Positions 1 through 43,707 of a DNA stretch of 64,000 nt are shown one piece after another; within the stretch, counting starts at the first letter, position 1, and each line of letters starts with the position of its first letter. Position numbers and translations under genes: made by a program. The notes under the pieces are model-generated. The model saw only the letters and a list, made by a program, of their open reading frames with translations, was not told where the DNA came from and did no database searches. This stretch comes from Antedon mediterranea. Taxonomy: Eukaryota; Animalia; Echinodermata. Location: positions 7,541,888 to 7,605,887 of the forward strand of contig NC_092676.1 in assembly GCF_964355755.1 (NCBI RefSeq), in the 5' to 3' direction.

Positions 1-748
1 TACAGAGAAGCAGCTTTCCAGCTTATTTAGCCTAGCCTAGAGCAATAGGCTAGGTATTAGTAGGCTACCTAATTAGGCCTAGAGGCTCTATGCCTATATA
101 TTATTATTTAATTATTATTAATTTTTATTTTTAATATATTTACAGTATTTATTACAAATAATGTTTATTATGAGGATACCTGGTTATATATACCCTATGC
201 AATGACATAAGGCATATATGCCTACCCTGTATGTAATAATTACAATTATTATAAATAATGAATTTTAACATTTGTTTTTGCTCATCACTGCATATTCAAA
301 TTAGTATGTATGCAACCATAGTAAATTTAATAAGTTAATTTTAATTAATTCTTATTATAATGTTATACTATTACTATTACTATTTTTTAGGTACATATAT
401 AGCGGCAACCCAAAATGGCTAAAACATTTTAAACAGATTTGGACCAATACCTATACCTACCATCTATATAGGTAAGTTTATTTTACTGTTCAAGAACTAG
501 TAAATTTTAAATTGTGTTTACCATGCTATGAATGTGTAACTTTAACAATCAATCACTAACACATGTACAGTACAGCAGTAGTACTATCAATCAATAGTAA
601 TTAGTTAGTAATTGAAATATAGACATACTATAGTATTACTTTTACATATTCATTATCATTAGGCATTGTTAAAAGGAAATCAATACAATGCAATATTCCT
701 TTAACATTTAAAAATGTACAATATTTTATGATCATTAATGTTAATGAA

Positions 749-1025
749 TCATTCTTTGTTGGCTTTCTTGCATTTGTTGGGTTTTATTATTTCATTTTGT
801 ATCATTGGAGATGTGAAAATCAGATGAGTCTAAGTTTGACTCTAATCCACACTGCTGTTTTGTGACGGTTGAGTTTGGCATGTATTAGCTCCCCGCCTTG
901 CTCAGAGACCCCCTTCCATTCTCTCATGAATGCAATAGCATGGTGCTCAAGCATATGTAGCTTAGGCTGTATTACACCTGGTGCAATATGCCTGTATTCT
1001 GCTAAAAATACTTGTATGATATTTT
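749..1025 (-). pseudogene. Transib/RAG1/Chapaev-like transposase catalytic C-terminal exon
   Basis: Manual translation: IIQVFLAEYRHIAPGVIQPKLHMLEHHAIAFMREWKGVSEQGGELIHAKLNR. This has PKxHxxxxH followed by SEQGxExxH, the third (E) catalytic motif. A frameshift follows, then …TSPMIQNEIIKPNKCKKANKE*. Confidence 0.75.
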
Positions 1026-1369
1026 TATGGAATTAAAAAATACTTAATTTACACATTAATACATTTTATAATTTCAGAAATTTTGTGATGAAAAAGTCAA
1101 TCTGTGGTGACTGTAGAATGGACCCAAGATCTGACTATCTTAGACATTTAAATAATAGAAAGTTCTGACAATTTTGTTGAATAGAAATATACAATGTATG
1201 ATGTAATCTTAATTGAAAATTGGCGCTTTTTAAACTATGTATATAAATTAGGATGAGAAAACAGTTATTTGATTATGAGGTATGTTCATTTAATTAAATT
1301 TGTTAGTATAAACTTTCAAAAAGAGTGAAGATATAAAGAAGAAAAGCAGATTATGGAGCAGCTGTATCA

Positions 1370-1706
1370 GACAAAAAACTGTTCCCTTAAACGCCAGTGT
1401 GTTCTTTCACTTGTGAATGTAGTTTTGGCCCAGGTCATAGTTGTTGTTGAAGTGTAGCATGCCAAGCAATTTGGTCCATGCCCTGTTAATTTAAATGTTA
1501 GCGTGGTAGTATACAGTATCCATTGAAAATTCGCGAATGGCAGGTTGTATAAATGTATATAGGTTGTAATTTTACATTTGTTAGATTTAGTGCAAATTTG
1601 TGATGGTTTTCATATTTTTTAAGTTGTATTTTTTATCCTTTTCTTTAAATTTTGTTCCACAACAGAAGCAAGTAGAACGTAAAGCCTTTTCGTGAAACTG
1701 TGTTGC
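1370..1706 (-). pseudogene. RAG1 N-terminal-like (Chapa/CND-type) zinc-binding exon, two frameshifts
   Basis: After the acceptor tttttgtag, manual translation gives ATQFHEKALRSTCFCCGTKFKEK / …NVKLQPIYIYTTCHSRIFNGY / TTTLTFKLTGHGPNCLACY. The spacing matches the RAG1 motifs H..LR..CRICG..F, IHP..FC..C and W.PH...C..C. Confidence 0.7.
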
Positions 1707-2586
1707 CTACAAAAAAGAAAAGAAATTTTAATTTTACCAACCTTTAATGTTATATTATATTTATCATACAGTAGTTTGAGTATTTTTGTATAGGCTTTAA
1801 TTTTAAGGGCCTAGCTAGGCCTGGTAGTTAGTAGTTTTACTAAATTTTTACATTTATGATGAATTATATTCAGTTGAAATAAATACAATGATAATAATTA
1901 AGCTTATTATTTATTCTATTGTAAATTAAAATGATGTATAGTATGATTACACTACTTATACGTACCAACTAGGCCTAGCTACAACCTAGGCCTAGTTGCG
2001 TACAGCCTAGCGAGCGGTTATCAGCCGCGTTCATCGACCTCTCGCCAAATACGCTGTTTCGCATTTAACAAAACAGTCGAGTTTTTACATGAAAATTTCT
2101 TGAGATTTTCACCGTCACCTCCTAACAATTCAATGTCTCATGTAAGCATATATAATCAAACTTTTACCTAGATTTTCCAAGTATTTATGAAAATTACGAA
2201 TAAAAACAAAAAGTGTACAATTTGACAAGCATTTTTTCAAACTTTCCATTGTTTACATTTGCTAGGCCGATCGATGTTAATTTTTAAAACTTCCGGGTGT
2301 AAATAATTTCGTAAACTTGTTGTTATGCTTAATTACTTACTATTTCCAAAAAATCGGTAATTAAGAATCTTATTTTCTAACAAATAGTATAAAAATGGTT
2401 TTATAATATTTATGACGAAATTGATTAAATTAATTTAAAGTGTAGTTATAAAAGTTGCAAATGTCGCGAAAGTTGAACGAGATTCAACCACTCGCGCGGC
2501 GTCACGCTCAGGCACATATCGCCGTCTGACAATATTGAGGGCGCTTGACTTTTTCTATTTATTTTACATTGGTTGAAACAGCTGTG

Positions 2587-3400
2587 GTCCATACGCGTTA
2601 GTTGTCTCAGTGGTTCTAAGATGTCTGACAAAGTTGGTAAGAATCTACTTAAGTAGTTGATGAAACCAATAAACCTCCTAACCTCATTTAAATTCTGTGG
2701 TGTTGGCATGTTTAGTACAGCCTTAATTTTGTTGTCATCTGGCTTTACACCTTGTCTTGTGACCTTGTGACCCAGAAAAGTTATCTGTGGTTCACGGAAT
2801 GTGGACTTATCCTTATTTAACTTAATGTTTAGTTGCTGGCACCGCTCTAGCAATAACTTTAAGTGTTTATCATGGTTTTGAAGTGCAGCTTCATCTGTTT
2901 CACCCTTACCATAAACAATTACCATATCATCGGCCACACACATTATCCCCTCTAGCCCTTCTAAGGCTGTGTGTAATCGGCTTTGAAATAGTTCAGATGA
3001 TGTACATAGGCCAAATGGCAATCGATTCCATTGGAATCTGCCAAATGGAGTATTAAAACAGGTAAGTTCTCTCGATTTGTGATCTAGTTTTATTTTCCAA
3101 AAAGCTTCACTCAGATCCAGTTTCGAGAATATTTTGGCATCATTCAGTTTTGGTAATACATCATCAATAACTGGTAACTGATAGTGAGCTCGTTTTAAGG
3201 CTTTATTTAAGGGTCGGGGGGTCAACACATATTTTTAGTTTGTTGTTGGCTTTAGTAGCGACAACCATCTGACTTACCCATTGTGTGGGGTGGTCGGGTG
3301 CTACTTTTTTTATTACCCCTCTTTGTTCCATTTTAGTTAGTTCGTCTTTTTCTCTTTGTTTAATTGAGTGGGGAATTCTCCTCGCTGGAAGTACCGTACC
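2587..3400 (-). pseudogene. pol: Gypsy reverse transcriptase (frameshift at ~3225; cut at 2587)
   Basis: ORFs 3203-3775 (3' part: WVSQMVVATKANNKLKICVDP) and 2446-3228 (RT core). The last ~47 aa of the 260-aa ORF are read-through into the inserted transposon. Confidence 0.92.
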
Positions 3401-6070
3401 ATTTTCATCAATGTCTATTTGGCTTACTTGGGGGTACCCTTTCTTTGGTTTTGTGGTTTTGGATCTGCAGCATGCAGCAAAATGGTTTGGTTTATCGCAC
3501 TTGTCACATGTGCGTCCCCTCGCAGGGCACTGTTGATGACTTGCATTATAGCCACATTTTCCACATTTCTTCGTCGAGTCTGATTTATGTCCCTTGTAAT
3601 GTGAGGGCGCTGTTTTATTATATCTTTTTGTTTTGTCAGTGTTGATTTTATGCACTTGGCTTTCGCCCTCCATCACCTTTAAACTTTCTTGGGATGTCTC
3701 ATAATTGAGTGCAATGTTAATCGCTTTGTCAAGGGTTAGCTCATCTCCTACGTCAAGACATTTGTGTACCGCCAAACCAAAACCAGGCGTTTGTCGGCAG
3801 CAAGGGATTTCTGTAAAATGCTTCTGAATGTGTAAAACCTATATCTTGACCATTTTTAGTTTTTTAAATAATCTTACAGAAAATTTACCGTAGATTCCAA
3901 AAATCTATGTATTTTAAAGAAATTATAAGTATAAATCAATGAAAATAACATTTTAATGAGACCCCCTTTTTCGTCTTTGGTGAAAAAATCAAGTTCTATT
4001 CTGTAATTTGTGTCTATTTCTAACCAACTTTTACATCTTTGATTATGAGAAGACCCCTTAATGTGTGGTATTTTTAGAAAGCTCGTGAAAAAATCTTTCC
4101 AAAGATAAAGGTTGTAGGTCATGTAAAATAATAGTATAGCCAATCAAACACATTCTTTAATAACCTTTTGGTATAAGCAAACCAGTCTTGTTGCTACGGA
4201 ATCCTGAAACAGGCAATTTGATTGGCTAACAGAGTGGCTAAAGTCATTGAAGCGTTAAATTTGCCTTTAACAGTTATTCAAAGTACACTGAGGAAGCGGT
4301 AAGGTTTTAACAAAACTTTCTTACTGTAAAAAACATTCAATATTAATTCATACTTGCTATTTATGCATCCTAGATAATAATAAAACAACAAAGAATAGTT
4401 TAATGATTTATATAATATGAAAAGTAGAAATATTGGCTTCACTAGCGAATCATAAACAACAAGAGGTTAGAAAGTACGAAATGACTTTCTAGCGCGACAC
4501 ACTCAGTTTGGTGAACACAGAAACACTTTTGATCAAAATATTAGGCCTAGCCTAGGCATAAGATAAGAGATGAACTGTATGCCAGCTTAGTACTTCAAGT
4601 TAGCCTAGTAAAACCACCTAGCATACCTTGGTCTAGGCCTAGCCCAAAAAAAAATGATTTTTAAATGTGTTTAAAAAAGTTTAATTTAATTTTTCATTCT
4701 GTTTTCAGATCTTGATTGGTATACTGTAATGTAATACCAATAGTTTTGACAGTGGTGGTGATGCTGTTGCTACTTTCTCTTCTCAAAGAACTCCAATAAT
4801 GGTGATACGGTGCTTAATATAACTTTACAAAAATGACTTTGATTCTGATGATACATGACACATGTATTCTATTATGCAACGTAACCCTGAATAAAACCGT
4901 GAAATAATTGTGTCGAAAAATATGTATGTATTTAAATGACCCGGCACAAAAGATGATAATACTGTTGTTGTAATACGCAGCCTAAAATGACCAAAATTTT
5001 ATAATTTAAAGTGTACCAATTGTAAATAAATTTAAACACATCAAACACAATCAACTGTCTGTGTATCATTAATTTTGGTTCATTTCTATGTGTTGTATTT
5101 TTATTGTCACTTTATTAATAGTACTTATTTATAGTTATTACAAGCCTCACACATAACATAAGTTTAGTAAAAAAAAGTTTACTAACGTATGTTGTTATTT
5201 GAAGTCTCATTTGACAATGTTATTGTTACTGGATTTCTTTGAAAATTTCAATGATTATAGAAAAATGTATTAGTTACATTTGTGCTAAATTTCAAAGTCA
5301 TAGGTATACTAGAAGTTAGCGTTGTCAAGGTGAACATGAGTCGCTGTCTGCCAGCACATTTAAACTTCCTGTTTGAACTATTGTTTATCTTTGAATGCAT
5401 TTTTCACTGCTTAATAAAAATGAATTCTTACTTGTATTTCTTTACTTATTGTATCATAACTATAAAAATACTTGACCAAATTGAATAATTTTTTCAGTAT
5501 TTTAAAGAAAATTATGTGCTCTGTACAAATATCTTGAAAACTCAAAATGTCACATTTACGACAAATGCCTGGTTTTGATTTGGCTGTACACATTTTTCTC
5601 TCACCTTGTGTTCCTTTGCTTTTACGACGATCGCGTCTCTCAACATTCTATCCTCGTCATCGTACTCACAACGCTTTATCAACACTCTTAGATCGGTTAG
5701 AAATATATTTAAAGACTCACCGTCTCTTTGTGCCCGTCCGTAAAATTCTACGGTCGCTTTGATGACGTTCTTTTTCGGCCTAACATAAAGTTCAAACCTG
5801 TTAAAAACACCTGTTAGTGTATCATTTTCGGCTGGCGTGGCTGGCTGGTCGTCGATCGCCTCGACGGCTGACGCCCAGTCTAGTGTGTCGAAAATTTCTC
5901 GGCCTCGATCCCCGAAGTATGTCATGAAGTAATTTACCTTCTGCAACTCGGTTTTCTCAGATAATGGGCCGTTAAATGTAAATTGACAATGCTGCCTGAA
6001 CCTCTTGAATTTTTTGTACAGGTCTACAGATGCCCAGTCCATCTGGGGCGTCTTTGATTTCGTAGCCATA
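3400..6070 (-). pseudogene. gag: Gypsy gag split by a MITE insertion
   Basis: …DRMLRDAIVVKAKEHKVREKC | LDVGDELTLDKAINIA…CGKCG…H..CPA.G.TCDKC.KPNHFAACCRS rejoins in frame when 3764-5591 and one TSD copy are removed. Confidence 0.88.
3764..5591. mobile_element. Non-autonomous TIR element (Sola1-like), 1828 bp
   Basis: ~33-bp imperfect TIRs GTGTACCGCCAAACCAAAACCAGGCGTTTGTCG / CGACAAATGCCTGGTTTTGATTTGGCTGTACAC. The 4-bp TSD ATTT (3760-3763, 5592-5595) fits the AWWT target reported for Sola1. Confidence 0.75.
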
Positions 6071-6118
6071 ATACTGGAATGTTCGGTAATATAGGCTAGC
6101 AAACACCGCTTGTCACCA

Positions 6119-6247
6119 TGTTGTGTTTCTCTATATTGACTCACGTGTACAGACATACAAGACAGACACGTCTTCACTTGGTAACAGTACTTTATTTAGT
6201 GACTCGTTCATTAACATAGGTCATACAATAGAGGGCTCACTACATCA
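6119..6247 (-). repeat. 5' LTR (~129 bp) with adjacent primer-binding site (6103-6118)
   Basis: On the minus strand it runs TG…CA with an internal AATAAA, immediately followed by TGGTGACAAGCGG (PBS-like) upstream of the gag ATG. Confidence 0.7.
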
Positions 6248-6589
6248 CCTGGTGGACTGATCTGAAGGTTTTCAAGAAGTTCATCGTTGCTCGATTCTTG
6301 GTCGTAACGTATACGTTTTTTGCGGTAGCTGCACATGTTGGCTGAGCACGCTTTCTGGAACGTCTGGTTACACCTCTACTAGTACTTGCTGTAGATATGA
6401 AAAACAGATTTTGTTGAGACGGTGTTTACACAGTTTATAAATACTTGTACTGTTCGAAATGTTATCAGTGTAAACATATATCATTCAACAAAGGCTAATG
6501 AATATATTGTTTGTTTCGATTATAATATTATGCTCTAGAGGTCAAAATAGAGAAAAATGTGAAAACACTAAATTAAGATTTGATGCCAT

Positions 6590-7775: not shown

Positions 7776-10700
7776 TATAGTTGTTGCAAAACAATATAAT
7801 ATGCGCACATATAGCGATATTATTGCATAAATTGAATTTTAAAAAGTCGATATTTGTACTATAGTAAGGGATTTTTTCAGAAAATGGCAAAATATCTACC
7901 CTATTAATTTTCGACAAAACTGTGTATTATGGCTCTATAAGTTGTTGCAAAACAATATATGCACACATATAGCAATATTATCGCATAATTATTGAATTTT
8001 AAAAAGTCGATATTTTATGCATTTTTCGAAAAAAAATCAGTGTACCAAAGTACATGGATTTTTTCAGAAAATGGCGAAATTTCCACCCTTTTATTTTTCG
8101 ACAAAACTGTGTATTATGGCTCTATAAGTTGTTGCAAAGCAATATATGCGCACATATAGCGATATTATCGCATAATTATTGAATTTTGAAAAGTCGATAT
8201 TTTGGGCATTTTTCGAAAAAATCACTGTACAGGGATTTTTTCAGAAATTGTCAAAAATTTCGACCCTTTTATTTTTCGACAAAACTGTATATTATGGCTC
8301 TATAAGTTGTTGCAAAACATTATATGCGCACATATAGCGATATTATCGCATAATTATTGAATTTTAAAAAGTCGATCTTTTGGGAATTTTTCAGAAAATT
8401 GCAAAATTTCTACCCTTTTATTTTTCGACAAAACTATGTATTATGGCTCTAAAAGTTGTTGCAAAACAATATATGCGCACATATAGCGATATTATTTCAT
8501 AATTATTGAATTTTGAAAAGTCGATATTTTGGGCATTTTTCGAAAAAATCCCAGTACTATATAGTAAAGGATTTTTTCAGAAAATGGCAAAATTTCTACC
8601 CTTTAATTTTTCGACAAAACTGTGTATTATGGCTCTATAAGTTGTTGCAAATCAATATATGTGCACATATAGTGATATTATCGCATAATTATTGAATTTT
8701 AAAAAGTCGATATATTGGTCATTTTTCGTAGTAAGGGATTTTTTCAGAAAATGGCAAAATTTCGACCATTTTAAATTTCGACAAAACTTTGTATTATGGC
8801 TCTATAAGTTGTTGCAAAACAATATATGCGCACATATAGCGATATTATCACATAATTATTGAATTTTAAAAAGTCGATATTTTATGCATTTTTCGAAAAA
8901 AAATCAGTGTACCAAAGTACATGGATTTTTTCAGAAAATGGCGAAATTTCCAGCCTTTTATTTTTCGACAAAACTGTGTATTATGGCTCTATAAGTTGTT
9001 GGAAAGCAATATATGCGCACATATAGCGATACTATCGCATAATTATTGAATTTTGAAAAGTCGATATTTTGGGCATTTTTCGAAAAACAGGGATTTTTTC
9101 AGAAATTTTCAAAAATTTCGACCCTTTTATTTTTCGACAAAGCTGTATATTATGGCTCTATAAGTTGTTGCAAAACATTATTATGCGCACATATAGCGAT
9201 ATTATCGCATAATTATTGAATTTTAAAAAGTCGATCTTTTGGGAATTTTTCAGAAAATTGCAAAATTTCTACCCTTTTATTTTTCGACAAAACTATGTAT
9301 TATGGCTCTAAAAGTTGTTGCAAAACAATATATGCGCACATATAGCGATATTATTTCATAATTATTGAATTTTGAAAAGTCGATATTTTGGGCATTTTTC
9401 GAAAAAATCCCAGTACTATATAGTAAGAGATTTTTTCAGAAAATGGCAAAATTTCTACCCTTTAATTTTTCGACAAAACTTTGTATTATGGCTCTATAAG
9501 TTGTTGCAAATCAATATATGTGCACATATAGTGATATTATCGCATAATTATTGAATTTTAAAAAGTCGATATTTTGGGCATTTTTCGTAGTAAGGGATTT
9601 TTTCAGAAAATGGCAAAATTTCGACCATTTTAAATTTCGACAAAACTTTGTATTATGGCTCTATAAGTTGTTGCAAAACAATATATGCGCACATATAGCG
9701 ATATTATCGCATAATTATTGAATTTTAAAAAGTCGATATTTTATGCATTTTTCGAAAAAAAATCAGTGTACCAAAGTACATGGATTTTTTCAGAAAATGG
9801 CGAAATTTCCAGCCTTATGGCTCTATAAGTTGTTGCAAAACATTATATGCGCACATATAGCATTATTATCGCATAATTATTGAATTTTAAAAAGTCGATC
9901 TTTTGGGAATTTTTCAGAAAATTGCAAAATTTCTACCCTTTTATTTTTCGACAAAACTATGTATTATGGGTCTAAAAGTTGTTGCAAAACAATATATGCG
10001 CACATATAGCGATATTATTGCATAATTATTGAATTTTGAAAAGTCGATATTTTGGGCATTTTTCGAAAAAATCCCAGTACTATATAGTAAGGGATTTTTT
10101 CAGAAAATGGCAAAATTTCTACCCTTTAATTTTTCGACAAAACTGTGTATTATGGCTCTATAAGTTGTTGCAAATCAATATATCTGCACATATAGTGATA
10201 TTATCGCATAATTATTGAATTTTAAAAAGTCGATATTTTGGGCATTTTTCGTAGTAAGGGATTTTTTCAGAAAATGGCAAAATTTCGACCATTTTAAATT
10301 TTGACAAAACTGTGTATTATGGCCCTATAAGTTGTTGCAAAACAATATATGCGCACATATAGCGATATTATCGCATAATTATTGAATTTAAAAAAGTCGA
10401 TATTTTGGGAGTTTTTCGAAAATATCCCCGTACAATAGTGAGGGATTTTTGTCAGAAAATGGCAAAATTTCGACCCTTTTATTTTTCGACAAAAATGTGT
10501 ATTATGGCTCTATAAGTTGTTGCAAAACAATATATACGCACATATCGCGATATTATTGCATAATTTTAAAATTTTATAAAGTAGATATTTTGGGCATTTT
10601 TCGAAAAAATCCCTGTACTAAAGTTCATGGATTTTTTCAGAAAATGACGAAATTTCCACCCTTTTTATTTTTCGACAAAACTGTGTATTATGGCTCTATA

Positions 10701-11440
10701 AGTTGTTGCAAAAACAATATATGCGCACATATAGCGATATTATCGCATAATTATTGAATTTTAAAAAGCCGATATTTTGGGCATTTTTCGAAAAAAATCC
10801 CTGTACTATAGTAAGGGATTTTTTCAGAAAATGGCAAAATTTCGACCATTTTAAATTTCTACAAAACTGTGTATTATGGCTCTATAAGTTGTTGCAAAAA
10901 CAATATATGCGCACATATAGCGATATTATCGCATAATTATTGAATTTTAAAAAGCCGATATTTTGGGCATTTTTCGAAAAAAATCCCCGTACAATAGTGA
11001 GGGATTTTTTTTCAGAAAATGGCAAAATTTCGACCCTTTCATTTTTCGACAAAAATGTGTATTATGGCTCTATAAGTTGTTGCAAAACAATATATACGCA
11101 CATATCGCGATATTATTGCATAATTTTCAAATTTTATAAAGTAGATATTTTGGGCATTTTTCGAAAAAATCCCTGTACTAAAGTACATGGATTTTTTCAG
11201 AAAATGGCGAAATTTCCACCCTTTTAATTTTCGACAAAAATTCCATTTACTATAGTACGGTACAGGGAATATTTTCAGAAAATGGCAAATTTTCGACCCT
11301 TTTATTTTTCGACAAAACTGTGTATTATGGCTCCATAAGTTGTTGCAAAGCAATATATGCGCACATATAGCGATATTATCGCATAATTATTGTATTTTAA
11401 AAAGTTGATATTTTGGGCATTTTTCGAAAAAATCCCTGTA
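7776..11440 (+). repeat. Tandem satellite, ~20-22 monomers of ~150-190 bp, with ~860-bp higher-order repeat
   Basis: Recurrent core TTCGACAAAACTGTGTATTATGGCTCTATAAGTTGTTGCAAAACAATATATGCGCACATATAGCGATATTATCGCATAATT. Near-identical spurious ORFs recur at 8513, 9372 and 10036. Confidence 0.95.
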
Positions 11441-11664
11441 CATATATCATCAACTGGCATGCACAGACGCACATAATATGTTCTGCGCATGCTACCTCAA
11501 TATTATATACATACTTTAAAATGTCGAATGAAAATTATGTTTACATCATAGATTGTGTTTGTTTATAACCTTTGTAACATGGAAAATATATATTTATTAT
11601 AATATGTTAATATGCTATACAAAAACTAATAAAGAGACATATAGAGAAAATGTGCATTCTGTAA

Positions 11665-25600: not shown

Positions 25601-28600
25601 TGTATATCTGAAGAACGAAACGTATCATTGTAAGTAGACATATACACCATGTATGGAGAAAACAACCGACTAAAATGGTATTGGAACGCTTTCAATTTGA
25701 CGACCAACAACCATCCTAAATCATTTTGTGCATGTAGAGATATAGTGTCCTCGCTCCTCACCATGATAATGATTTGATGGTTTCTGGGTCTCAAATTGAG
25801 AGTTTTTAATAGTCTATTAAATGTTCCCAATATTACTGTACATATGTAAGTCAGATCACTGGTAGGCTATTATAAACGCCTAGGTTTGATTCACAAAATA
25901 ATCTGCATAAACAAGGTGTTATTACTTATTAATATTTGTGAGTAGAAGAGTTCTGGCGTCTGACAGGATTTTAACCCATCGGCGACATTCTTTGTTGGTT
26001 AATAGAGAAAAAAAGACTAATCTACTTTACCAAGGCATTTTTAAATTACCAGTAACTGTGACATCATAAGTGCATTGATCCTGATTAGTAGCGGCATCTC
26101 TGGCTGTACATGTGATTGTCGACACTCCGATGGGCATGTTTCTTAGTCCAGATTGATCACATGATAATGACGTAACACCTACGTTGTCAGTTGCTGTGGG
26201 ATCTTCTAGTGTTAATGCAGCATGTGGTGAATCTAAATCTGTCACTGCATCAGTAATCGTGGACGGACAGGTGATAACCGGGTCTTCAACATCTGAATGA
26301 CCATTAAAACAGGTTATTGGGTTTACTATGTAGTCTAGGGCGTGTATGTTGGTGGAATCCTCGCCCCAAACCAAAGCTTACCAACCTATTTCTACAGTTG
26401 TAAGCCCATACTTACCATATACAACAACATAGTATGTGCATACTTGAGGCGACGTGCACCACCCCTCCTCGGAAACGTCGTGTCGGACAAGGTATGTTCC
26501 TGGACCTATTATATCTCCCGGGCATATTGTATTCCATCCACCAGTTGCACAAGTATGTGTGAACGAACCAGAGTTATCCGATATTACTGGAGTTACCTGG
26601 TATGTCATCGTGCTTGCACCCACTGCTAGGTTATATGTTTCCAAGCTACATGCTGGGCTGGAAATAACTGCATTTTCCCAATCTGCAATGTGAATTATGA
26701 AAGTTTTATAAAATTATCATCACTGCTGATGAAAAATCTCGCAAAGACAAAATAAATGTTGCTCCGATAGTTTTAAGAGTAAAAGTTACCACAATGCTTG
26801 CCAACTGGATGTTTGTGTGTATACGTTATAATGCTTGAGACGCAACGTAATTTGACCAATCGGAAAGGATGAAATATTCCTGTCACTTATCATTGGTCAA
26901 CTAACAAAAAAGCGGGGATACAAGGTATTTGTCATCATTGAATGAAAAAAAGATGTTGTATTTTCATTTAAACATACCTTCGAACGAAACAAACAAACCA
27001 CCGGATAACAACAATAAGGATAGTCGACCTAGGCCTAAAGAAAGCTGTTCGATGAAACCCGTTTTTGTTAAAGCGGATGAAATTCCTTCACAGAACAACA
27101 AATCTTACATGAGAGATGAAGAGTTATGTATCGCGTTAACACAACGTGTTGATGCAGAAAGTATAGTCGGGGTGCAGAAGATAAGAAATTTGTGGCGCAT
27201 TTATGTGAATAATCGAAAAGACCGAGTAAGTCTGATAACAGGTGGTGTTAATCTAAGGAGTTGTAATGTAACTGTATATGACAGAAATCCCTACATTACA
27301 TTCAATTCATTGGAAACAACCAGAATACTCGTTAAGGACATACCTTTATCAGTAGTCTGGGCTCCAGACGGAGTTTGTCTTAATATTAGTAAAAATATAA
27401 ATATTTTTGCACATATGGCGTTTCATATGTGTATTACTTGAGTTTAGATACTCCGTCTGGGGAAACACGCACAAGTCACGTGGTTTGACACCAAGAACTC
27501 TTGGTGCATAAATTATCCAGTTGACTAGATTCAGCCGCATGCCATTGGCTACTCACTTGTAGCCAGTTTTAATATTCATATTTAAGAATTTCAAAGACTC
27601 AACATCTAAGATGATACGCATGCGCTATGCTACGTTTAGACAATGTGTGCTTGGGTACATTGATGAAAGTTTCTGAAGGCTAGAAATGATTTTATATGCC
27701 TAGTAGTAGTCTGGTAAACATTTGATGGGATTTTTCCCAAGAACATGAAAACTCGTCTTGATATGATAGGCTAGCTTCTCCGCCAAATCAAACATTGAAT
27801 GGATAATAATTATTATGCGGAGATAATTTGATTTAATTCTCACCCAGACCCTCTCCTGTTCTCCTGTGTGTGGTAGTGTAGCCCTGTTGTGTGCCGGTCG
27901 GTGGTGGTATGTACCTTAAGTTTACTGGCGTTTTATTTGGCAGGTCATACGTACGAGTTGAGTAGCCGTACGAAGGAGGCCTAGGCCAGGACTAAACAAT
28001 TAATAAACAAAACAACTTGGCAACACGATTTTATATTTCAACAGTTGTTCAGTCGATCGTACATTCAGCACTGTACGTACTCGATCTTTTTCATTTTGAA
28101 TCAAAATGATCATTGGTTGATTCGAAATCCATATTTACATACCGCCCGCCCCATATAGCCAAATACGGTATGATAATCTACGTTATTCTTATCGGATGTT
28201 TGTGGTCTGCAAATCGATTTCTATACGTGTTTCACAAGTCTGTCTTTTCAGACAAAAATCGCGGTCGAAATAAAAACAAATAAATAAAAAAAAAACAATA
28301 AATACAGACTTGGGGCAAGTCTACTTTATCAGTGGCAGACTCTGAAATTGTTAATAAGCTTAAACTGCTGGGATGTAAACCAGTAGGTGAAGTTATGAAG
28401 CTTAAAATAAGAGTTGGTGGAAAATTAACCAGCTGGCTCAATGGAGATAGATCCATTTTTGTTGAAAAATGAAAACCTCGATTCCAAGGCAAGTTACTAT
28501 AATAAATGGTTTTAAAGCCCCGCATATTTCATGAAGGGCAAGAATTAAGATGCACAAAATGTCTTAAAGTAGGTCATCTGTCATGTAAATGTAAAGCAGA

Positions 28601-31600
28601 TGCTGTCTGTCTCAAATGCAACCAGGAAGGGCATATGAAAAATAAATGTCCAAATTCAAACAAATCAAACTCATCTGTCGGATCACCAGGATCTTACATC
28701 AATCAAATGTGGGAATCATTTGTTGGAAATAAAGCTGACTAGGTATCTAAACCTGAAGAAAGGAGAGAAGACGATGCAAACTTACAAGAGATAGAAGAAG
28801 GAAAAAGCAATAAAAGTGTATTTAGCGTGAGCGATTCAAGCAATGCAGAGACAAGTGATGAGGAAACAATTGATTGTGTGCAAAATGGAAATAAAAGTCT
28901 GCCAAATCAAAAGGAAGATAGTACCATTAATGATGGTTTGATCACAAAAGATAACAAAGAAAATAATGAAGGACAGGAACAAAAAAAGGTAACCGATTAC
29001 TTTGATGCATCTACCAGCAAAGGTTAAAAAAAGTTGGAAAGGTACACAAGAACAGCCTTCTTCCTCTACAACTTCTTCTACTGCTACAATGGCCAAGAAT
29101 GTTGACCAAGACCGAAATCAAAACATGACATTGGAAGGAAAGCAAGCAACACCTAAAAGAAATCTTAGAAAAAAAGAAAAAATAGCGGATTATCTATACA
29201 AGAGTTTTACCTGAAAATTAAATAACTTTAAGTAATACGGCAAGCAATACTTTTCATTGTGTTTCGCTAAATGTCAGAGGTCTACGTAACCAAACCAAGC
29301 AAAGGCAAATCTTCAAATGGTGCAAGGACCAAAACACAGAGATTCTGCTTATCCAAGAAACACACTTTACGCCAGAGTTGTTAACCAAAGTTAATGTTCT
29401 CTGGAATGGCACCTGCTTTCATAGCATAGGAAGTTCTAGTAGCACTGGAGTATCTATTCTTTTTAAAAAAGAGTTTGATTTTAGAGTAATTAACACGGAC
29501 ATTGATAAAAATGGAAGGTATATTATTGTAAAAATAGAAATGTTTAGAAAAAGCTATGTTTTTGTTAATATATATGCGCCAAACAATTGTAAAATAAGAA
29601 GTGTGTTTTTTAGAGAGATTCAGAAAGTCTTAGCCAACATGGTTGATATTGAAGAAGATAAAATTGTTATTGGTGGAGATATAAATTGTGTTTTGAACAG
29701 AAAATATGACCAAAAAAATAGCGCTGAGCGAAATGACAAATCAGTTTTTACTGTTAAAAATGTTATGAGTAAACTAAACCTAGTTGATGCTTGGCGAAAA
29801 TGCAACCCTGAAAAAACACACTTTACATGGCGTAGAAAAGGTGGTCAAATTTATAGACGACTAGATTATTGGCTGGTCTCAAAAGGTTTGTTAGATTGTA
29901 ATGAGATTATATCATGCGACATAAGACCTACAATACTTACTGAACATCAAGCAATATCTCTAAAGATTGGGTCTAATGAATCAAAAAGAGGTCGGGGCTA
30001 TTGGAAATTAAATAATAGTCTTCTAAATAATGTTGAATATCAGAATACTATTAAAAAGATTATCAGAGAAACACAAACAAACTATAATGATCTTAGTATC
30101 AGTGTAGTGTCAATTCGAGTATTGATAATGAATAAATTGAGACAGAAATAGATCTAAAAACAAAGGAATTGGAAAATATTTATAGTAAAGAAACGAAAGG
30201 TGCATATATACGATCAAGGGTTAAATGGATAGAGGAGGGAGAGCGTAGCACAAAATACTTATTAGGTTTAGAGAAAAGTAATGGATCAAAAAAGCACATA
30301 AAATGTATTAAAAATAATAATGGTAACTTATTAAAAAGACCAAAGGAAATCATTTGTAAATAAATAAGATTCTTTAAGAAACTATATGCTAATAAGGGAA
30401 TCTCCCAAGCTAATATAAGTGACTATCTAGATCATTCAAATGTAAATGGTTTAACATATGAAGAAACAAGGCCAACAGCCATTAAGTCGCGTGCTACAAT
30501 GCATAGTGATACCGGACCGACAGACAGACCGACAGACAGACCGACAGACAGACCGACCGACCAACATAGTGAACTATACTGACCGAAATTACTAAACATG
30601 TTTAAAAATGTTGAAATGTTTAAAAACATTTATATTTTTTTAATTTACACGTGCGTAGCCTGTCACTTTTGACGTGCTCGTATAACGTAATTTCGAGTTG
30701 AAAAGTAAGTCAAGAAAACAGAAATCGGGCAAAAAGAGTGCGCAATAACATTTAACGCGTAGTGCGCGCGCAAAAATATGCGCACTCATGGCAATTTTGT
30801 AAACGCTTAAAATTGCCTGAAACGTACTCTTATTTCATCGAAAATAAATTGTGAAAAATTTAAGCGCGCGTACGCATGCGTTACATGCGCTACGCACGTA
30901 ATTGTATTGCCATATGATGATTTATGCCCAGAAATTTATGAGTACCAAATTTTATTGAATTGTGATTCATGGTTGTGAAGATATGATTTCAAACGTGATT
31001 TCGTTAAATCGTGCGTAGACCGCGTAATTTTTTATTGCGCACCGTGAAAACATAACCACATCGATTCCTGGCCATAAGGAATATACTGTGAAAAATTGAC
31101 CAAGCTAGATTAAACTGATATCAAGATAAGGTCAGAAAGCGATAAAACGCATAGGGATACCGGACCGACAGACCGACCGACCGACCGACCGACCGACATA
31201 GTGAACTATAGAGTCGCTTCCACGCGACTAAAAACAAGTTGTGAAGGTTTAATCACAGTACAGGAATGCAGGGAAGCATTAAAACTTATGAAATTGAATA
31301 AAGCCCCAGGGTATGATGGTTTAACTGTTGAGTTCTACAAGTATTTTTGGGAAGAGCTCAAATATTTAATATGTGATGTTTTTAATGAATGCTATTTAAA
31401 CAGTTAAATGAGTAATATGCAAAGACGTGGTGTTATTAATCTGTTATATAAGAAAGGGGATAACAATCTATTAGAAAATTGGCGTCCTATTACTCTGCTA
31501 ACCACAGATTATAAAATATTAACACACATCCTTAGTAATAGACTACATAAGGTAATTAATTCTGTTGTAAATAGTGACCAAAAAGGGTATATAAAAGGTC

Positions 31601-34600
31601 GTTTTGCTGGAGAAAACATTAGGCTCATTGATGATCTCCTATGCTATACTGTTGAAGAAGATGTTGAAGGTGCTTTTTTGTCACTTGATTTTAGAAAAGC
31701 ATTTGACTCTGTGAGTAGAGAGTTCATGTTTAAGGTGTTGGAAAAATTTAACTTTGGAAAGTCCTTTTGTAAATGGGTAAAAACAATTTATAAAAACACA
31801 GAATGTGTCATTGTTAACAATGGATGGGTATCTGAAAATTTTGAAATGAAATGTGGTATACGACAAGGCTGTCCCTTGTCAGCACTACTATTTCTATTGG
31901 TTGTAGAAACAATGGCAAGTAACCTAAGAAATGATCAACATTATAATGGAATTTTGCTACCTGGTCCTACAAAAGAGGAAGTACGTATAGCACAACTTGC
32001 AGATGATACAGTATTGTTTGCAAGAAACGAAAAAATTATAAAAAGAGGTCTATTCATTGTTAATAATTTCTGTGAAGTATCTGGTTTAAGCTTAAACAAA
32101 AACAAAACTAGTGACATGTGGATTGGTAAAAATAGATATAAAAAAGATAAACCTTTTAATTTAAATTGGGTCACTGATCCTTTAAAAATCTTAGGAATAT
32201 ACTTAGGGTATGATGCTGAATTATGTAAAGAATTAAACTGGGCTAAAAAATTAACCAACCTTGAAAAAGTATTAAACTCTTGGAAAGCAAGGAATCTTAC
32301 AATTTTTGGAAAAGTCACAGTTTTAAAAAGTTTAGCTTTAGCCCCATTAATACAACGCATCCATAATTGATGTGCCTGAAAGTGTCGTTAAAAGGATAAC
32401 ACAATTGTCTTATGAATTTCTTTGGGATGGAAAAAATGAAAAGATAAAAAGAAAAACATTAATTGGTAATATAATTGAGGGTGGCATTAATATTCCAGAT
32501 TTTTCTACTCAAGTTAAAACACTTAAAATCACATGGGTAAAGAGAATTCTTTGTAGAAAACATATAAAATGGAAAGTACTTCCACTGTATTATATAAACA
32601 AGATTGGAAGTGAATATATGGTATTTAATATGTCAAACTTGAATATAAGAAAGGGCAGTTTTTGTTAGCTAAGATGCCCTTATTTTATTCAAATGTAATA
32701 AAAAGTTGTGCAGAATTTAATACAAATATAAACAGTAAGGCAAAATCTTATAATAATGTTATACAAGAAAACCTATGGGGTAATAAGGAAATTTTTGGTA
32801 AAAACACTACTTTGTTTTATAAAACGTGGAGTAATGTAGGTTTCAATCAGATCAATGATTTAGTAAGAATCAATAGACTAATGAACCCACATGAAATTTT
32901 ATCAAAATTAAATGTCAAAAGAAACTGGCTTAGTGAATATGCTACGCTCATGCAAGCTATTCCTAAAGGTTGGCTGGATTTAATAAAAAATTATAATGGA
33001 GATAGTGTTAAATTAAATTCAGATGATTATAAAATAAATAAGATATTTCAGATGAAATCAAAACAGATATATTCAAGTTTTATAGAAGGTACGTTTGTTG
33101 CTCCTATCACTATTCCCAAATGGGAAAAAGAAATTGATATTGAAATTACAAACTGGTTTGATATTTTGTCAAGAAAAGTAAAAAATGAGAAAAACAAAAA
33201 ATATGCACAACTTAATTACAAATTACTTCTTAGAATTTTACCAACAAATTTACAATTATATAAATCGAATATTAAGAACACAAAAAAATGTGAGTTATGT
33301 GATGTAACTGAGGATGAAAAGCACATGTTTTTCAAATGTAAAAGCAATGTCTTATTATGGAAAAAAAATCAATGAAATATTTAAAAAGTTAGATAATAGT
33401 AACTGTTCTTTTGAAGAACTTGTTTTTGGGTCTGAATGCAACATAAAATATAAGTTATACTCAATTGCTCTATATTCTATATATAAAATAAAAATATTGT
33501 CAGAATTAAATAAGTCAGTCTGCAAAAACTCATGGATAATGTTTAAAAATATACTTACACAAGAGTATACCATGAATGTATTTTATTAATTTTTTATTTT
33601 GGAGGTTACTGTAAATAAAGTAATTTGTACAAAAATGTAAATAGAGCAAATAAAACAGAAAAAAAAAGAAAAAAAGGAAAAAACAATAAAAAGAAGTGTA
33701 AAAAAAAATAGCATGGTAAATGCTATAGGCCTACTCTACAAGCAACTGGTTATTGAGTTGCTTTTTATTTTCCATATTTATTGATATTGTTTTCAGTTTA
33801 AATGTAATGTAAATGTGTAAATGATATCTTGCAGAGTTTTTTAAGATGTAAGGGGAAACTTTATGTCTATGAATGAAAATAGTATATATTTAAAAAGATA
33901 ATATACAAACATAATAAAATTGTTTATTTATGTTTTGAAATGAAATAAAGGTGAGTGAACCTCACAAAAGAGAAAAAAAAACATACCGTCTACATATACT
34001 GTGAATTTGCAATAGCCAGTAGCTCCGCTATGCGTTGCTGAGATCTCTACTAGTGTTGTTCCAAGAATGAATTGGTCTCCGGGTTGGTGTGAACTGGTAA
34101 TCGGTACGTTTTGGCCATCAATAGTTACGACTGGAGGGGTCCATGTTGCAGTGGCGTAGTCAACACCACTTTCGGTTTCCATAACTATGTTACTGGGACA
34201 AGATTGTTCCAGTGCGGCAACAAAATCAGGTAAAGGCCCATTACTGACAACTTAAAAAATTAGAACAACAGATATTTCAGGATCAACCGGGTCATAATTT
34301 AAAAGAAAATGGGGAAAATTACTATTTATATTACAAGCTATATTACATGGTATACATTGTTACCGTGTGGTACAAACATGATTTTACTTTAATTGTCTAA
34401 GGATTGAAACGTACGGTAATCAAAGTATATTATTTACACAAATAGTTACCAATTGTATTTTTGCATATACCGCAATATCCAGCATTACATGATACTTCTT
34501 CCCAGTCGTGGTTTCTGCCTCTGTCAAATGCGTGACAACGTTCTGGCAAGTACGATTCTAAGTCTTGTGCATCGTCAATAAAGTCAACAGGAGTGCCATC

Positions 34601-41772: not shown

Positions 41773-43707
41773 TAGTCTAGGCAAAAAATGTGAAAAAAAT
41801 GAGTTAGGGGGAGTGGAATGTTAGAGGCTGTCAACATAGCCAGATATCCTAATTAAACCCTTCTGATCACTCTAAGCCCTGTTGACACTTAATTTTTTGC
41901 CTCGTCTTGAAATGGCGGCCATTTTTCAAAATGGCCGCCATTTTTTTATAAAATGTGGATAAAATCAGATCTAAATAAGGTAGATACACAATCTTGGTGT
42001 CTAAACACATGTACTTCAGACACGGAATCCATTAGGCCTTGTTGACACTTCAGTTTTTGCCTCTTATTAAAATGGCAGCCATTTTTCAAAATGGCCGCCA
42101 TTTTTATATAAAATGTGCATAAAATCAGATCTAAATAAGGTAGATACACAATCTTGGTGTCTAAACACATGTACTTCAGACATGGAATCCATTAGGCCTT
42201 GTTGACACTTTAGTTTTTGCCTCGTATTAAAATGGCAGCCATTTTTCAAAATGGCCGCCATTTTTATATAAAATGTGGATAAAATCAGATCTAAATAAGG
42301 TAGATACACAATCTTGGTGTCTAAACACATGTACTTCAGACACGGAATCCATTAGGCCTTGTTGACACTTCAGATTTTGCCTCGTATTTTATAGAAATGT
42401 GCATAAAATCGGATCTAAATAAGGTATATGCCCGATCTTGGTGTCTAAACACATGTTTTTTTCAGGCAAGGAATCCATTAAATCTATAATAAATAAATTT
42501 AAATAGTTTAATTAATTAATTTTTAAAGTTAAGTGCACAGTAGCTAACATTTTTCAAAATGGTTACCTAATTTATCTGTTCATGAAATCGAAAATCTGGA
42601 ATTTGTTTTACAAATTGGTAAAGGTTTAGTTTGTATAGAGCCATGACTAGGATTTTAAAGCCTCAGCTTTTGTTGAATTCATTTGCATGTAACTTCACAG
42701 ATGTTTCATCTTGACTGTGTAGGCCCTCCTATTAGGCCTACATAAACTAATATTATTTACCTCCGCTAAGGAGATATATATGTAGTCTATCGCGTACCCA
42801 AATCAGCTGGATTTGAACTATGTCAAGCTAATATCTAAAGCAAAAAAATGTATCATTCAACATACTCCCTATCAGTGGATATATTTTGCCAAGTACTTCA
42901 CTCAGTTTCTGAGTGCTTTCATTTGTTTGTCTGTTTGTTAGCAGGATTACTCAAAAAGTTATTGCAAGATCTTTACCAAAATTAGGGTTAGATAGATATG
43001 TGGTCAAGTTCCACTCCTTTACATTTTAGAGGCAATCCGGACCACGGTCCCAATTTTGGACCACTTTTTAGTATTATTTTCAGACCTGCTATTTTTAAGA
43101 GATAGGAGAGAATTTTCAAAAGCCGGCGAGCAGTCTTAAAGTAAAGTAAACTGAATCTGCATTTTCTCGAGAACTACTTGTCCAAAAAACTTTTTTAGAT
43201 CTGATTTTATGCATATTTTATATAAAAATGGCGGCCATTTTAAAAAATGGCTGCCATTTTAATACGAGGCAAAAACTGAAGTGTCAACAAGGCCTAATGG
43301 ATTCCGTGTCTGAAGTACATGTGTTTAGACACCAAGATTGTGTATCTACCTTGTTTAGAACTGATTTTATGCACATTTTATATAAAATTGGCGGCCATTT
43401 TGAAAAATGGCCGCCATTTCAATACTAGGCAAAAATTGAAGTTTGAACAAGGCCTAATGAATTCCGTGTCTGAAGTACATGTGTTTAGACACCAAGATCG
43501 TGCATCTATCTTATTTAGATCCGATTTTATGCACATTTTATATAAAATTGGCGGCCATTTCAAGACGAGGCAAAAAATTAAGTGTCAACAGGGCCTAGAG
43601 TGATCAGAAGGGATTAATTAGGATATCTGGCTATGTTGACAGCCTCTAACATTCCACTCCCCCTAAATTGATTTCTAAGCATCTTTTCAGATTTTTGTCC
43701 TAGACTA
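41773..43707. mobile_element. Foldback-type non-autonomous element (Academ-like) with long modular TIRs
   Basis: Termini TAGTCTAGG…CCTAGACTA with a 3-bp TSD TAA (41770-41772, 43708-43710). The arms contain ~178-bp tandem units (AAAATGGCGGCCATTTT…GTGTCTAAACACATGTACTTCAGACAC) in opposite orientations. Confidence 0.8.

What the first reader, a model, noticed from the sequence alone, without database searches (positions are those of the whole stretch)
749..2586. Hidden RAG1-related transposon combining a RAG1-type N-terminal zinc domain with a Transib-like catalytic tail
Seen: no ORF call here, but manual minus-strand translation gives (i) HEKALRSTCFCCG…QPIYI(Y)TTCH…TGHGPNCLAC and (ii) PKLHMLEHH…SEQGGELIH, in apparently spliced pieces within one element. 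Known: the first pattern resembles the RAG1 non-core N-terminal Cys/His domain shared with Chapaev and N-RAG-TP transposons. The second resembles the H…H plus catalytic-Glu region of RAG1/Transib/Chapaev. Inference: this is an internally deleted member of a RAG1-related family. It inserted into a still well-preserved Gypsy RT, so it was mobile fairly recently and intact relatives may exist in this genome.
Basis: partly seen in the sequence, partly recalled or inferred. Interest (0 to 1): 0.85.

Follow-up and report, generated by a model that had tools for sequence, protein, structure and literature searches.

The report
Gutted Chapaev transposon inside a Gypsy
This is a broken, repeated piece of jumping DNA, sitting in an older retrotransposon, that keeps only the zinc-finger head and the last catalytic stretch of a Chapaev-type transposase, a known distant cousin of the antibody-gene enzyme RAG1; it is likely moved by an intact partner elsewhere in the genome and is ordinary.

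Summary
Both peptides are real. The tail (1026-749, minus) is 69% identical to a crinoid protein. Its full-length relatives (800-1200 aa) carry Pfam DUF1280 (22 of 22 long ones scanned), which the literature equates with Chapaev transposases; many also carry a RAG1-type N-terminal zinc domain and a RING. The N-terminal piece (1706-1454) is a frameshifted Chapa domain: it beats 5000 shuffles, and sister copies in sequencing runs lack both frameshifts and carry the missing Cys. One contig bridges both pieces, and the element's CACAG end at 2586 has different flanks in other copies. It is therefore one multi-copy, internally deleted element. It runs past window position 1, so 749 is only the stop codon; the 3' end and target duplication are untestable. 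The tail has no sequence match to RAG1, RAG1L or Transib; a relative's model folds like RAG1 at 13-14% identity. Chapa + RING + Transib-like core is the published Chapaev architecture (PMC4411706). Verdict: new non-autonomous member of a known superfamily, not a new RAG1 lineage. The scan reported similar Chapaev relics in three other genomes.

The parts
2560..2586 (-). 5' terminus of the element, starting CACAGCTG (candidate terminal inverted repeat; its length is unknown because the partner end is outside the window)
   Evidence: Loose ends with other flanks behind 2586 in runs X1 and X5; summed depth falls from about 600 to 61 in X1 and from 3800 to 89 in X8 at this point; Gypsy RT homology stops at 2587
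1707..2559 (-). 5' subterminal region with CpG-rich stretches, probable promoter, first exon (not identified) and intron ending in a pyrimidine tract and AG at 1708-1707
   Evidence: Sequence and CpG counts; covered by high-depth contigs with 0-4 differences in X1 and X5
1454..1706 (-). Decayed Chapa / RAG1-NZD-type zinc-finger exon: H-x7-C-x2-C ... (C>Y)-x2-C ... H-x3-C-x2-C, frameshifted at about 1606 and 1514-1519
   Evidence: 13.1 bits against a Chapa profile, best of 5000 shuffles 10.2; sister contigs read Cys at codon 1551-1549 and lack both frameshifts; pattern fits the CHAPA alignment in PMC4411706 supplement 5 by eye
1027..1453 (-). Junction region: end of N-terminal homology, the large internal deletion (RING, NBD-like region, both catalytic Asp, C(2)C all missing) and intron-like AT-rich DNA
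   Evidence: No middle part of the family profile is found in 1-2700; diverged sister contigs leave the window sequence at 1371
1086..1230 (.). Short stretch shared with other repeats (possible nested repeat or piece common to several derivatives); right edge approximate
   Evidence: Loose ends at 1086 in X1 (8 contigs), X5 (3), X8 (7) and raised depth in bin 1101-1210; weak match to window 11495-11556, 78% over 64 nt
749..1026 (-). Last exon of a Chapaev transposase: PKLH-x4-H zinc motif, EQGGE with the catalytic Glu, C-terminal helix and basic tail; 4-codon deletion before EQGGE, a further deletion with frame change at about 830-846, stop at 751-749
   Evidence: 69% identity to P0001, E 2.1e-18; tblastn of P0001 and P0186 hits 1029-847 and 826-788; 43.3 bits against profile A1; family profile aligns its EQGgE with RAG1 SEGNE
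1..748 (-). 3' region of the element, AT-rich, no reading frame over 56 codons on either strand; the 3' terminus is likely beyond the window start
   Evidence: Repeat-level depth to position 1 in three runs, contig X1-1 spans 508-1125; frame lengths; no matching inverted end; no Rfam match
2587..3234 (-). Host sequence: Ty3/Gypsy-type reverse transcriptase, cut by the insertion
   Evidence: RVT_1 E 7.5e-25 (the Gypsy label is from recalled motifs); a sister contig in X1 ends exactly at 2587 with 13 differences and 4 gaps over 629 nt

Best explanation
This is one copy of a repeated, internally deleted Chapaev-type DNA transposon that keeps its CAC end, a frameshifted Chapa zinc-finger exon and the last catalytic exon, cannot encode a working transposase, and was likely cut and pasted into the Gypsy RT by an intact family member acting in trans. 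Shown: both coding remnants, their linkage in other copies, the 5' end, the loss of the protein's middle, the Chapaev (DUF1280) kinship of the tail. Inferred: the parent was a single spliced gene of about 900-1000 aa with Chapa, probably RING, an NBD-like region and a RAG1/Transib-fold DDE core; transposition would use the ends only, with a 3-4 bp target duplication as published for Chapaev; the copy is young because it is over 99% identical to the dominant contigs of a second study.
For: Tail: 69% to Anneissia japonica P0001, 56% over 43 aa to Hydra P0174, whose RING region resembles Chapaev-4/6/7_HM of PMC4411706 supplement 5 by eye. A Hydra relative used as query finds 1707 proteins at E<=0.001; of the best 150, 22 long ones were scanned and all 22 carry DUF1280 above cut-off, 10 hit RAG1_imp_bd (8 above cut-off), 12 hit a RING family at E<=0.05. 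DUF1280 = Chapaev transposases (PMC3985635, passage). Tree: window tail + P0001 (100/98), + Asterias P0171 (100/96), which carries DUF1280. Family invariants D486, D556, C575/C578, H878/H883, E904 in P0015 numbering match the C(2)C, LH, H(4)H hallmarks. Linkage: X8 contig 22 (796 nt) covers 864-1648. End: CAC start, variable flanks. Youth: 11 differences over 1853 nt against four X5 contigs, 3 over 1992 nt against five X1 contigs.
Against: No named Repbase Chapaev sequence was available for a direct alignment or tree; membership rests on Pfam DUF1280 in relatives plus by-eye comparison with a published alignment. The closest relatives (P0001, P0186, P0171, P0188) are partial gene models without an N-terminus, so Chapa and tail are linked in this subgroup only by the window and the contigs. 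The Chapa score is modest, and the His of the usual HP motif is Gln in the window and was not restored in any sister contig. The 3' end and target duplication are outside the window. No intact parent was seen; contig depth is not a copy number, and X1 may be the window's own sample. The tree has no outgroup and the window row fills only 42% of columns.
Confidence: 0.9

Rival explanations
1. It is a deleted RAG1L/ProtoRAG (TransibSU) or a new lineage closer to RAG1 than Chapaev is, possibly with a RAG2-like gene beyond the window start.
For: CACAG end resembles the RSS heptamer start; the family profile matches mouse RAG1 101-489 (E 4.8e-15) through the zinc domain, RING and NBD; a relative's model is closest to RAG1 (Foldseek E 1e-15; VIA Z 24.5) ahead of BbRAG1L (Z 22.8) and HzTransib (Z 21.7).
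Against: The window tail has no hit among PDB sequences, which include RAG1, BbRAG1L and HzTransib, at E<=10. The family core matches RAG1 only at 3.3 and 1.8 bits and 13-14% structural identity, whereas TransibSU cores are over 30% identical to RAG1 (PMC4411706). No RAG1-core Pfam family is listed for 31 relatives scanned. No frame over 56 codons in 1-760. CAC ends are shared by Chapaev.
Confidence: 0.03
2. The two coding remnants come from different elements joined by nesting or recombination, and the chimera was then amplified.
For: Many contigs leave the window sequence at 1086 and at 1371; a 3726-nt X5 contig shares 1371-1411 and about 405-429 with the window, with no tail piece listed between them; no single protein in hand matches both remnants closely.
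Against: Order, strand and content are those of a single Chapaev gene; relatives of the tail begin with the same Chapa domain; a contig of another organism bridges both; no second terminus lies between them. Both donors would still be Chapaevs.
Confidence: 0.06
3. The N-terminal pattern is chance in Cys-rich AT-rich DNA and only the tail is a transposase remnant.
For: No Pfam hit for the separate pieces; first read-through was reached by 2 of 2000 shuffles.
Against: With break points taken from sister contigs it beats all 5000 shuffles; sister contigs independently lack both frameshifts and read Cys, Phe and Glu at the expected places; a splice acceptor sits directly before it.
Confidence: 0.01

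Closest known systems
Chapaev transposons with type I Chapa domain (Chapaev-1/2_BF, -1/2_NV, -4/6/7_HM; CMC/CMCT clade; Pfam DUF1280 PF06918; PMC4411706, PMC4079192, bioRxiv 10.64898/2026.01.24.700457)
   Same: CAC terminus; N-terminal Chapa zinc finger with one N-terminal His and a C-terminal H-C-C set; LH and H(4)H motifs before the catalytic Glu; relatives carry DUF1280 and often RING; internally deleted non-autonomous derivatives are described for Chapaev (PMC4079192).
   Different: New family from a likely crinoid host; tail forms its own small echinoderm branch with Anneissia and Asterias proteins; keeps spliced, decayed exons; RING, DUF1280 and two catalytic Asp are deleted in this copy.
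RAG1 and RAG1L / ProtoRAG / TransibSU
   Same: Homologous N-terminal zinc domain (family profile vs PDB 21WB, E 8e-12), same core fold in a relative's model (Z 24.5), CAC end.
   Different: Core only 13-14% identical; tail motif differs (PKLH..EHH..EQGGE vs RAG1's own) and gives no sequence hit; no RAG2-like frame in the part seen; 5-bp duplication untested.
Canonical Transib (HzTransib, Nozomi/Kodama)
   Same: H...H plus catalytic Glu region, same fold (Z 15-22); amplification of centrally deleted derivatives (10.64898/2026.08.26.747230, passages).
   Different: Transibs have no Chapa/NZD domain (PMC4411706; 10.64898/2026.01.24.700457); no sequence hit of the tail to HzTransib.
N-RAG-TP of Aplysia
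   Same: RAG1 N-terminal-like zinc domain in a mobile element.
   Different: Described as made only of RAG1 N-terminal-like sequence (PMC8355894, passage); this element also has a catalytic tail. I could not align to N-RAG-TP itself; that it overlaps the Aplysia Chapaev families is my recollection, not tested.

Membership tests
Chapaev | 5'-CAC terminus | tested here: met
   Element starts CACAG at 2586, boundary fixed by variable flanks; hallmark from PMC4079192
Chapaev | Matching GTG-3' terminal inverted repeat | not testable with these tools
   3' end lies beyond window position 1; no genome held
Chapaev | 3-4 bp target site duplication | not testable with these tools
   Other flank is outside the window
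Chapaev | N-terminal Chapa zinc finger | tested here: met
   Decayed but significant: 13.1 bits vs best 10.2 of 5000 shuffles; sister contigs restore frames and Cys
Chapaev | LH and H(4)H motifs and catalytic Glu | tested here: met
   PKLHMLEHH and EQGGE align to profile A1 at 43.3 bits
Chapaev | Two catalytic Asp, C(2)C and DUF1280 region | tested here: inconclusive
   Deleted from this copy; present in relatives, including the near relative P0171/P0188
Chapaev | Groups with named Repbase Chapaev transposases in a core tree | not testable with these tools
   No named sequences in session; by-eye likeness of P0174 to Chapaev-4/6/7_HM and of KGGRP-bearing relatives to the BF/NV group
RAG1L / ProtoRAG / TransibSU | Core over 30% identical to RAG1 | tested here: not met
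   Tail has no PDB sequence hit; relative P0015 13-14% in structural alignment; threshold from PMC4411706
RAG1L / ProtoRAG / TransibSU | Convergent RAG2-like gene | tested here: inconclusive
   No frame over 56 codons in 1-760, but the element continues outside the window
RAG1L / ProtoRAG / TransibSU | 5-bp target site duplication | not testable with these tools
   3' flank outside the window
Canonical Transib | Transposase core without Chapa domain | tested here: not met
   Chapa remnant present
N-RAG-TP | Only RAG1 N-terminal-like coding sequence | tested here: not met
   Catalytic tail present in the same element; definition from PMC8355894 passage

The most novel reading that the evidence does not exclude
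An intact parent of this family is still jumping in a feather star and represents an undescribed echinoderm branch of Chapaev with the whole RAG1 domain order (zinc domain, RING, NBD-like region, RAG1-fold core) in one gene; it would be a living, RAG2-free model for testing what the RAG1 N-terminal zinc domain does in transposition, which has not been tested in any Chapaev according to the 2026 preprint.
Probability: 0.3. Interest if true: 0.4.

Novelty: new member of a known kind. Interest (0 to 1): 0.17.

Why it matters
Little by itself: it adds a crinoid family to a superfamily whose link to the RAG1 N-terminus has been in print since 2015 at the latest (PMC4411706) and was modelled structurally in 2026 (10.64898/2026.01.24.700457). 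Its modest value is as a pointer: a young, amplified derivative implies a recently active Chapaev transposase in this lineage, and long unbroken relatives exist in Antedon mediterranea (P0015, P0075, P0170). These could serve for a first biochemical test of a Chapaev enzyme, an outgroup for RAG evolution. It is not evidence of a RAG transposon in crinoids, from which one 2017 preprint reports it lost (10.1101/100735, passage).

Tried and rejected
No whole genome was held, so full-length copies, the 3' end and the target duplication could not be sought. Search of the window for the partner end: only a 10-of-12 match at 850, inside the tail coding sequence, taken as chance. Pfam on the four window pieces: nothing. 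PDB sequence search with the tail: nothing. Search for longer relatives of P0001 gave four proteins, none both close and full length; search with alignment A1 gave 12 proteins, none named Chapaev. Supplement search of PMC12730594 for Chapaev: no occurrences in the text held. Yuan and Wessler 2011 is not held; it is cited only through PMC4079192, PMC3985635 and PMC12730594. The protein atlas did not hold the window tail; the relative P0171 ranked unnamed and DUF1280 clusters first (0.96-0.97) and RAG1 clusters lower (0.93-0.95), a lead only. Rfam on 1-6500: no match, so no sign of the histone-type 3' end noted for other transposases of this genome. No RNA holder listed. The count of 20 of 26 long proteins with a Chapa hit is circular, as the profile was built from them, and is not used as evidence. 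First exon and start codon could not be assigned. Run X10 covered only 7 of 30 bins and was not used. Literature searches; none listed a paper on crinoid Chapaevs, which is no proof of absence, and Repbase Reports are not searchable here.

Full report
Observation. The window is AT-rich animal DNA; no whole genome is held. The nearest protein hits are from crinoids and earlier notes on this genome call it a feather star (unchecked). The Cys/His pattern runs through three frames between 1706 and 1454, behind a pyrimidine tract and AG. The second peptide lies in one frame from 1026 to about 847, followed by a last piece in another frame ending at TGA 751-749. The coordinate 749 is thus the stop codon.

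Element limits. Gypsy-type RT (RVT_1, E 7.5e-25) stops at 2587, and the minus strand continues with CACAGCTG. Contigs of four public runs laid on 1-3300 show loose ends with other flanks behind 2586 in X1 and X5, and a drop in summed depth there (about 600 to 61 in X1, 53 to 9 in X5, 3800 to 89 in X8). Depth is not a copy number, but variable flanks mark a repeat end. High depth continues to position 1 in three runs, and no matching inverted end lies in 1-748, so the 3' end and the target duplication are outside the window. X8 contig 22 (organism B, 796 nt) covers 864-1648 with one 32-nt skip, so both remnants are joined in other copies too. Against five X1 contigs the window differs at 3 of 1992 nt, against four X5 contigs (a second study) at 11 of 1853 nt; X1 may be the window's own sample. 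The same deleted layout at 2-4% divergence in organism B suggests that the deletion is older than the latest amplification (inference).

The tail. A search for longer proteins gave 3 hits among 6 candidates: two from Anneissia japonica (69% and 58%) and one from Hydra. The Hydra protein as query found 1707 cluster representatives at E<=0.001, of which the best 150 were returned; 33 of the 152 proteins then held were 700 aa or longer. I scanned 22 of these plus the two short seeds: all 22 carry DUF1280 above cut-off, 10 hit RAG1_imp_bd (8 above cut-off) and 12 hit a RING family at E<=0.05; the seeds have neither. Named members come from Antedon, Branchiostoma, Amphiura, Asterias, Ptychodera, Diadema and Hydra. 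DUF1280 is stated to correspond to Chapaev transposases (PMC3985635, passage). The 34-sequence alignment A1 conserves D486, D556, C575/C578, H878/H883 and E904 of P0015, the DDE, C(2)C, LH and H(4)H hallmarks named for Chapaev (PMC4079192, passages). The window tail scores 43.3 bits against A1, shuffles at most 2.9, and nothing of the protein's middle is left in 1-2700. In a tree of 61 rows (long proteins and close short ones, chosen from 132 with the motif; no outgroup) it joins P0001 (100/98) and then Asterias P0171 (100/96). P0171 carries DUF1280.

The head. No single piece hits Pfam, and a first read-through with guessed break points scored 10.0 bits, reached by 2 of 2000 shuffles. A second laying on 1330-1780 gave independent evidence: organism-B contigs have one more base at 1606; diverged contigs in X1, X6 and X8 lack 5 nt at about 1514-1519; each change joins the frames. 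Of 27 substitutions examined, 1550 turns Tyr into the missing Cys of C-x2-C, two different changes at 1487 both give Phe, and 1482 gives Glu before the His, as in the W/F-x-x-H motif; two give stop codons, and none restores the His of the HP motif. With these break points and a trimmed profile the window scores 13.1 bits against a best of 10.2 in 5000 shuffles; with sister variants 14.9 against 13.2 (22.4 against 16.6 without composition correction). By eye the pattern fits the CHAPA alignment of PMC4411706 supplement 5 and the type I ligand scheme of the 2026 preprint (passages).

Relation to RAG1. The A1 profile matches mouse RAG1 101-489 (E 4.8e-15) and the NZD structure 21WB (E 8e-12), but the catalytic core only at 3.3 and 1.8 bits; it places EQGgE on RAG1 SEGNE. 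An AlphaFold2 model of the relative P0015 (pLDDT 83.7) matches RAG1 cores (E 1e-15; Z 24.5, 452 residues, 14% identity), BbRAG1L (Z 22.8) and HzTransib (Z 21.7 at best). The window tail itself finds nothing among PDB sequences. So the family works like RAG1/Transib in fold, but is not RAG1L, whose cores are over 30% identical to RAG1 (PMC4411706, parts 1-2 of 4 read). That paper already describes Chapaev as Chapa, in two subgroups RING, and a core only distantly related to other Transibs. No RAG2-like frame lies in 1-760, with the caveat that the element runs on.

Mechanism. Shown: this copy has lost RING, NBD-like region, both catalytic Asp and C(2)C, and what remains is frameshifted; it cannot make a transposase. 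Inferred from the family: an intact Chapaev transposase binds the CAC ends, excises the element and inserts it with a 3-4 bp duplication; internally deleted derivatives that keep the ends are amplified in trans, as described for Chapaev (PMC4079192) and for Transib (10.64898/2026.08.26.747230, passages). The joints show several differently deleted sister families, one on a 3726-nt contig, so longer relatives exist; an intact one was not seen.

Other papers seen: PMC1131882, PMC8355894, PMC3014272, PMC12730594 and 10.1101/100735 as passages; others only as search listings. Supplements of the bioRxiv preprints were not seen and may hold Chapaev sequences that would allow a direct placement. Earlier scan notes reached the same Chapaev reading on other genomes; they are not evidence.

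Verdict. Real, correctly spotted, and explained: a non-autonomous Chapaev of a likely new crinoid family. New member of a known kind; interest 0.17.

Noticed in passing
window 3764-5591: A second, 1.8-kb gene-less DNA transposon inside the same Gypsy copy: inverted ends GTGTAC...GTACAC (41-nt arms, 85% complementary) with ATTT on both sides. A 4-bp AWWT-type duplication recalls Sola1 (from memory, untested).
   Followed up: partly
window 2587-6195, minus strand: The Gypsy copy is damaged beyond the two insertions: the gag zinc knuckles run straight into the RT lead-in with no protease seen, and the frame changes at about 3205-3234.
   Followed up: partly
run X5, contig of 3726 nt: Shares window 1371-1411 and about 405-429 with about 3.6 kb of other sequence between; a longer sister family that might hold more of the transposase. 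Its letters could not be read.
   Followed up: no
protein P0048 (247 aa): A relative that runs from a partial Chapa domain directly into the catalytic tail, apparently the same kind of internal deletion in another genome.
   Followed up: no
proteins P0015, P0075, P0170 (Antedon mediterranea): Long unbroken Chapaev-type proteins of 951-975 aa in a feather star, one cluster in several loci; candidates for an active enzyme.
   Followed up: partly
window about 7780-11510: Tandem array of about 186-nt units, partly in both orientations; may relate to the satellite-filled foldback element noted elsewhere in this genome.
   Followed up: no
window about 29220-33370, plus strand: LINE-type element with endonuclease and RT frames, preceded by an ORF1-like frame at 26905-27438.
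   Followed up: no
window about 16500-60100, minus strand: Host gene or genes with many HYR-like and C-type lectin-like exons (labels from recalled motifs), with large blocks duplicated about 24 kb and 33 kb apart at 87-98% identity.
   Followed up: no
window 41783-43687 and 47389-51372: Two long inverted-repeat structures (arms up to 371 nt at 94%, and 217 nt at 88%), likely foldback-type elements.
   Followed up: no
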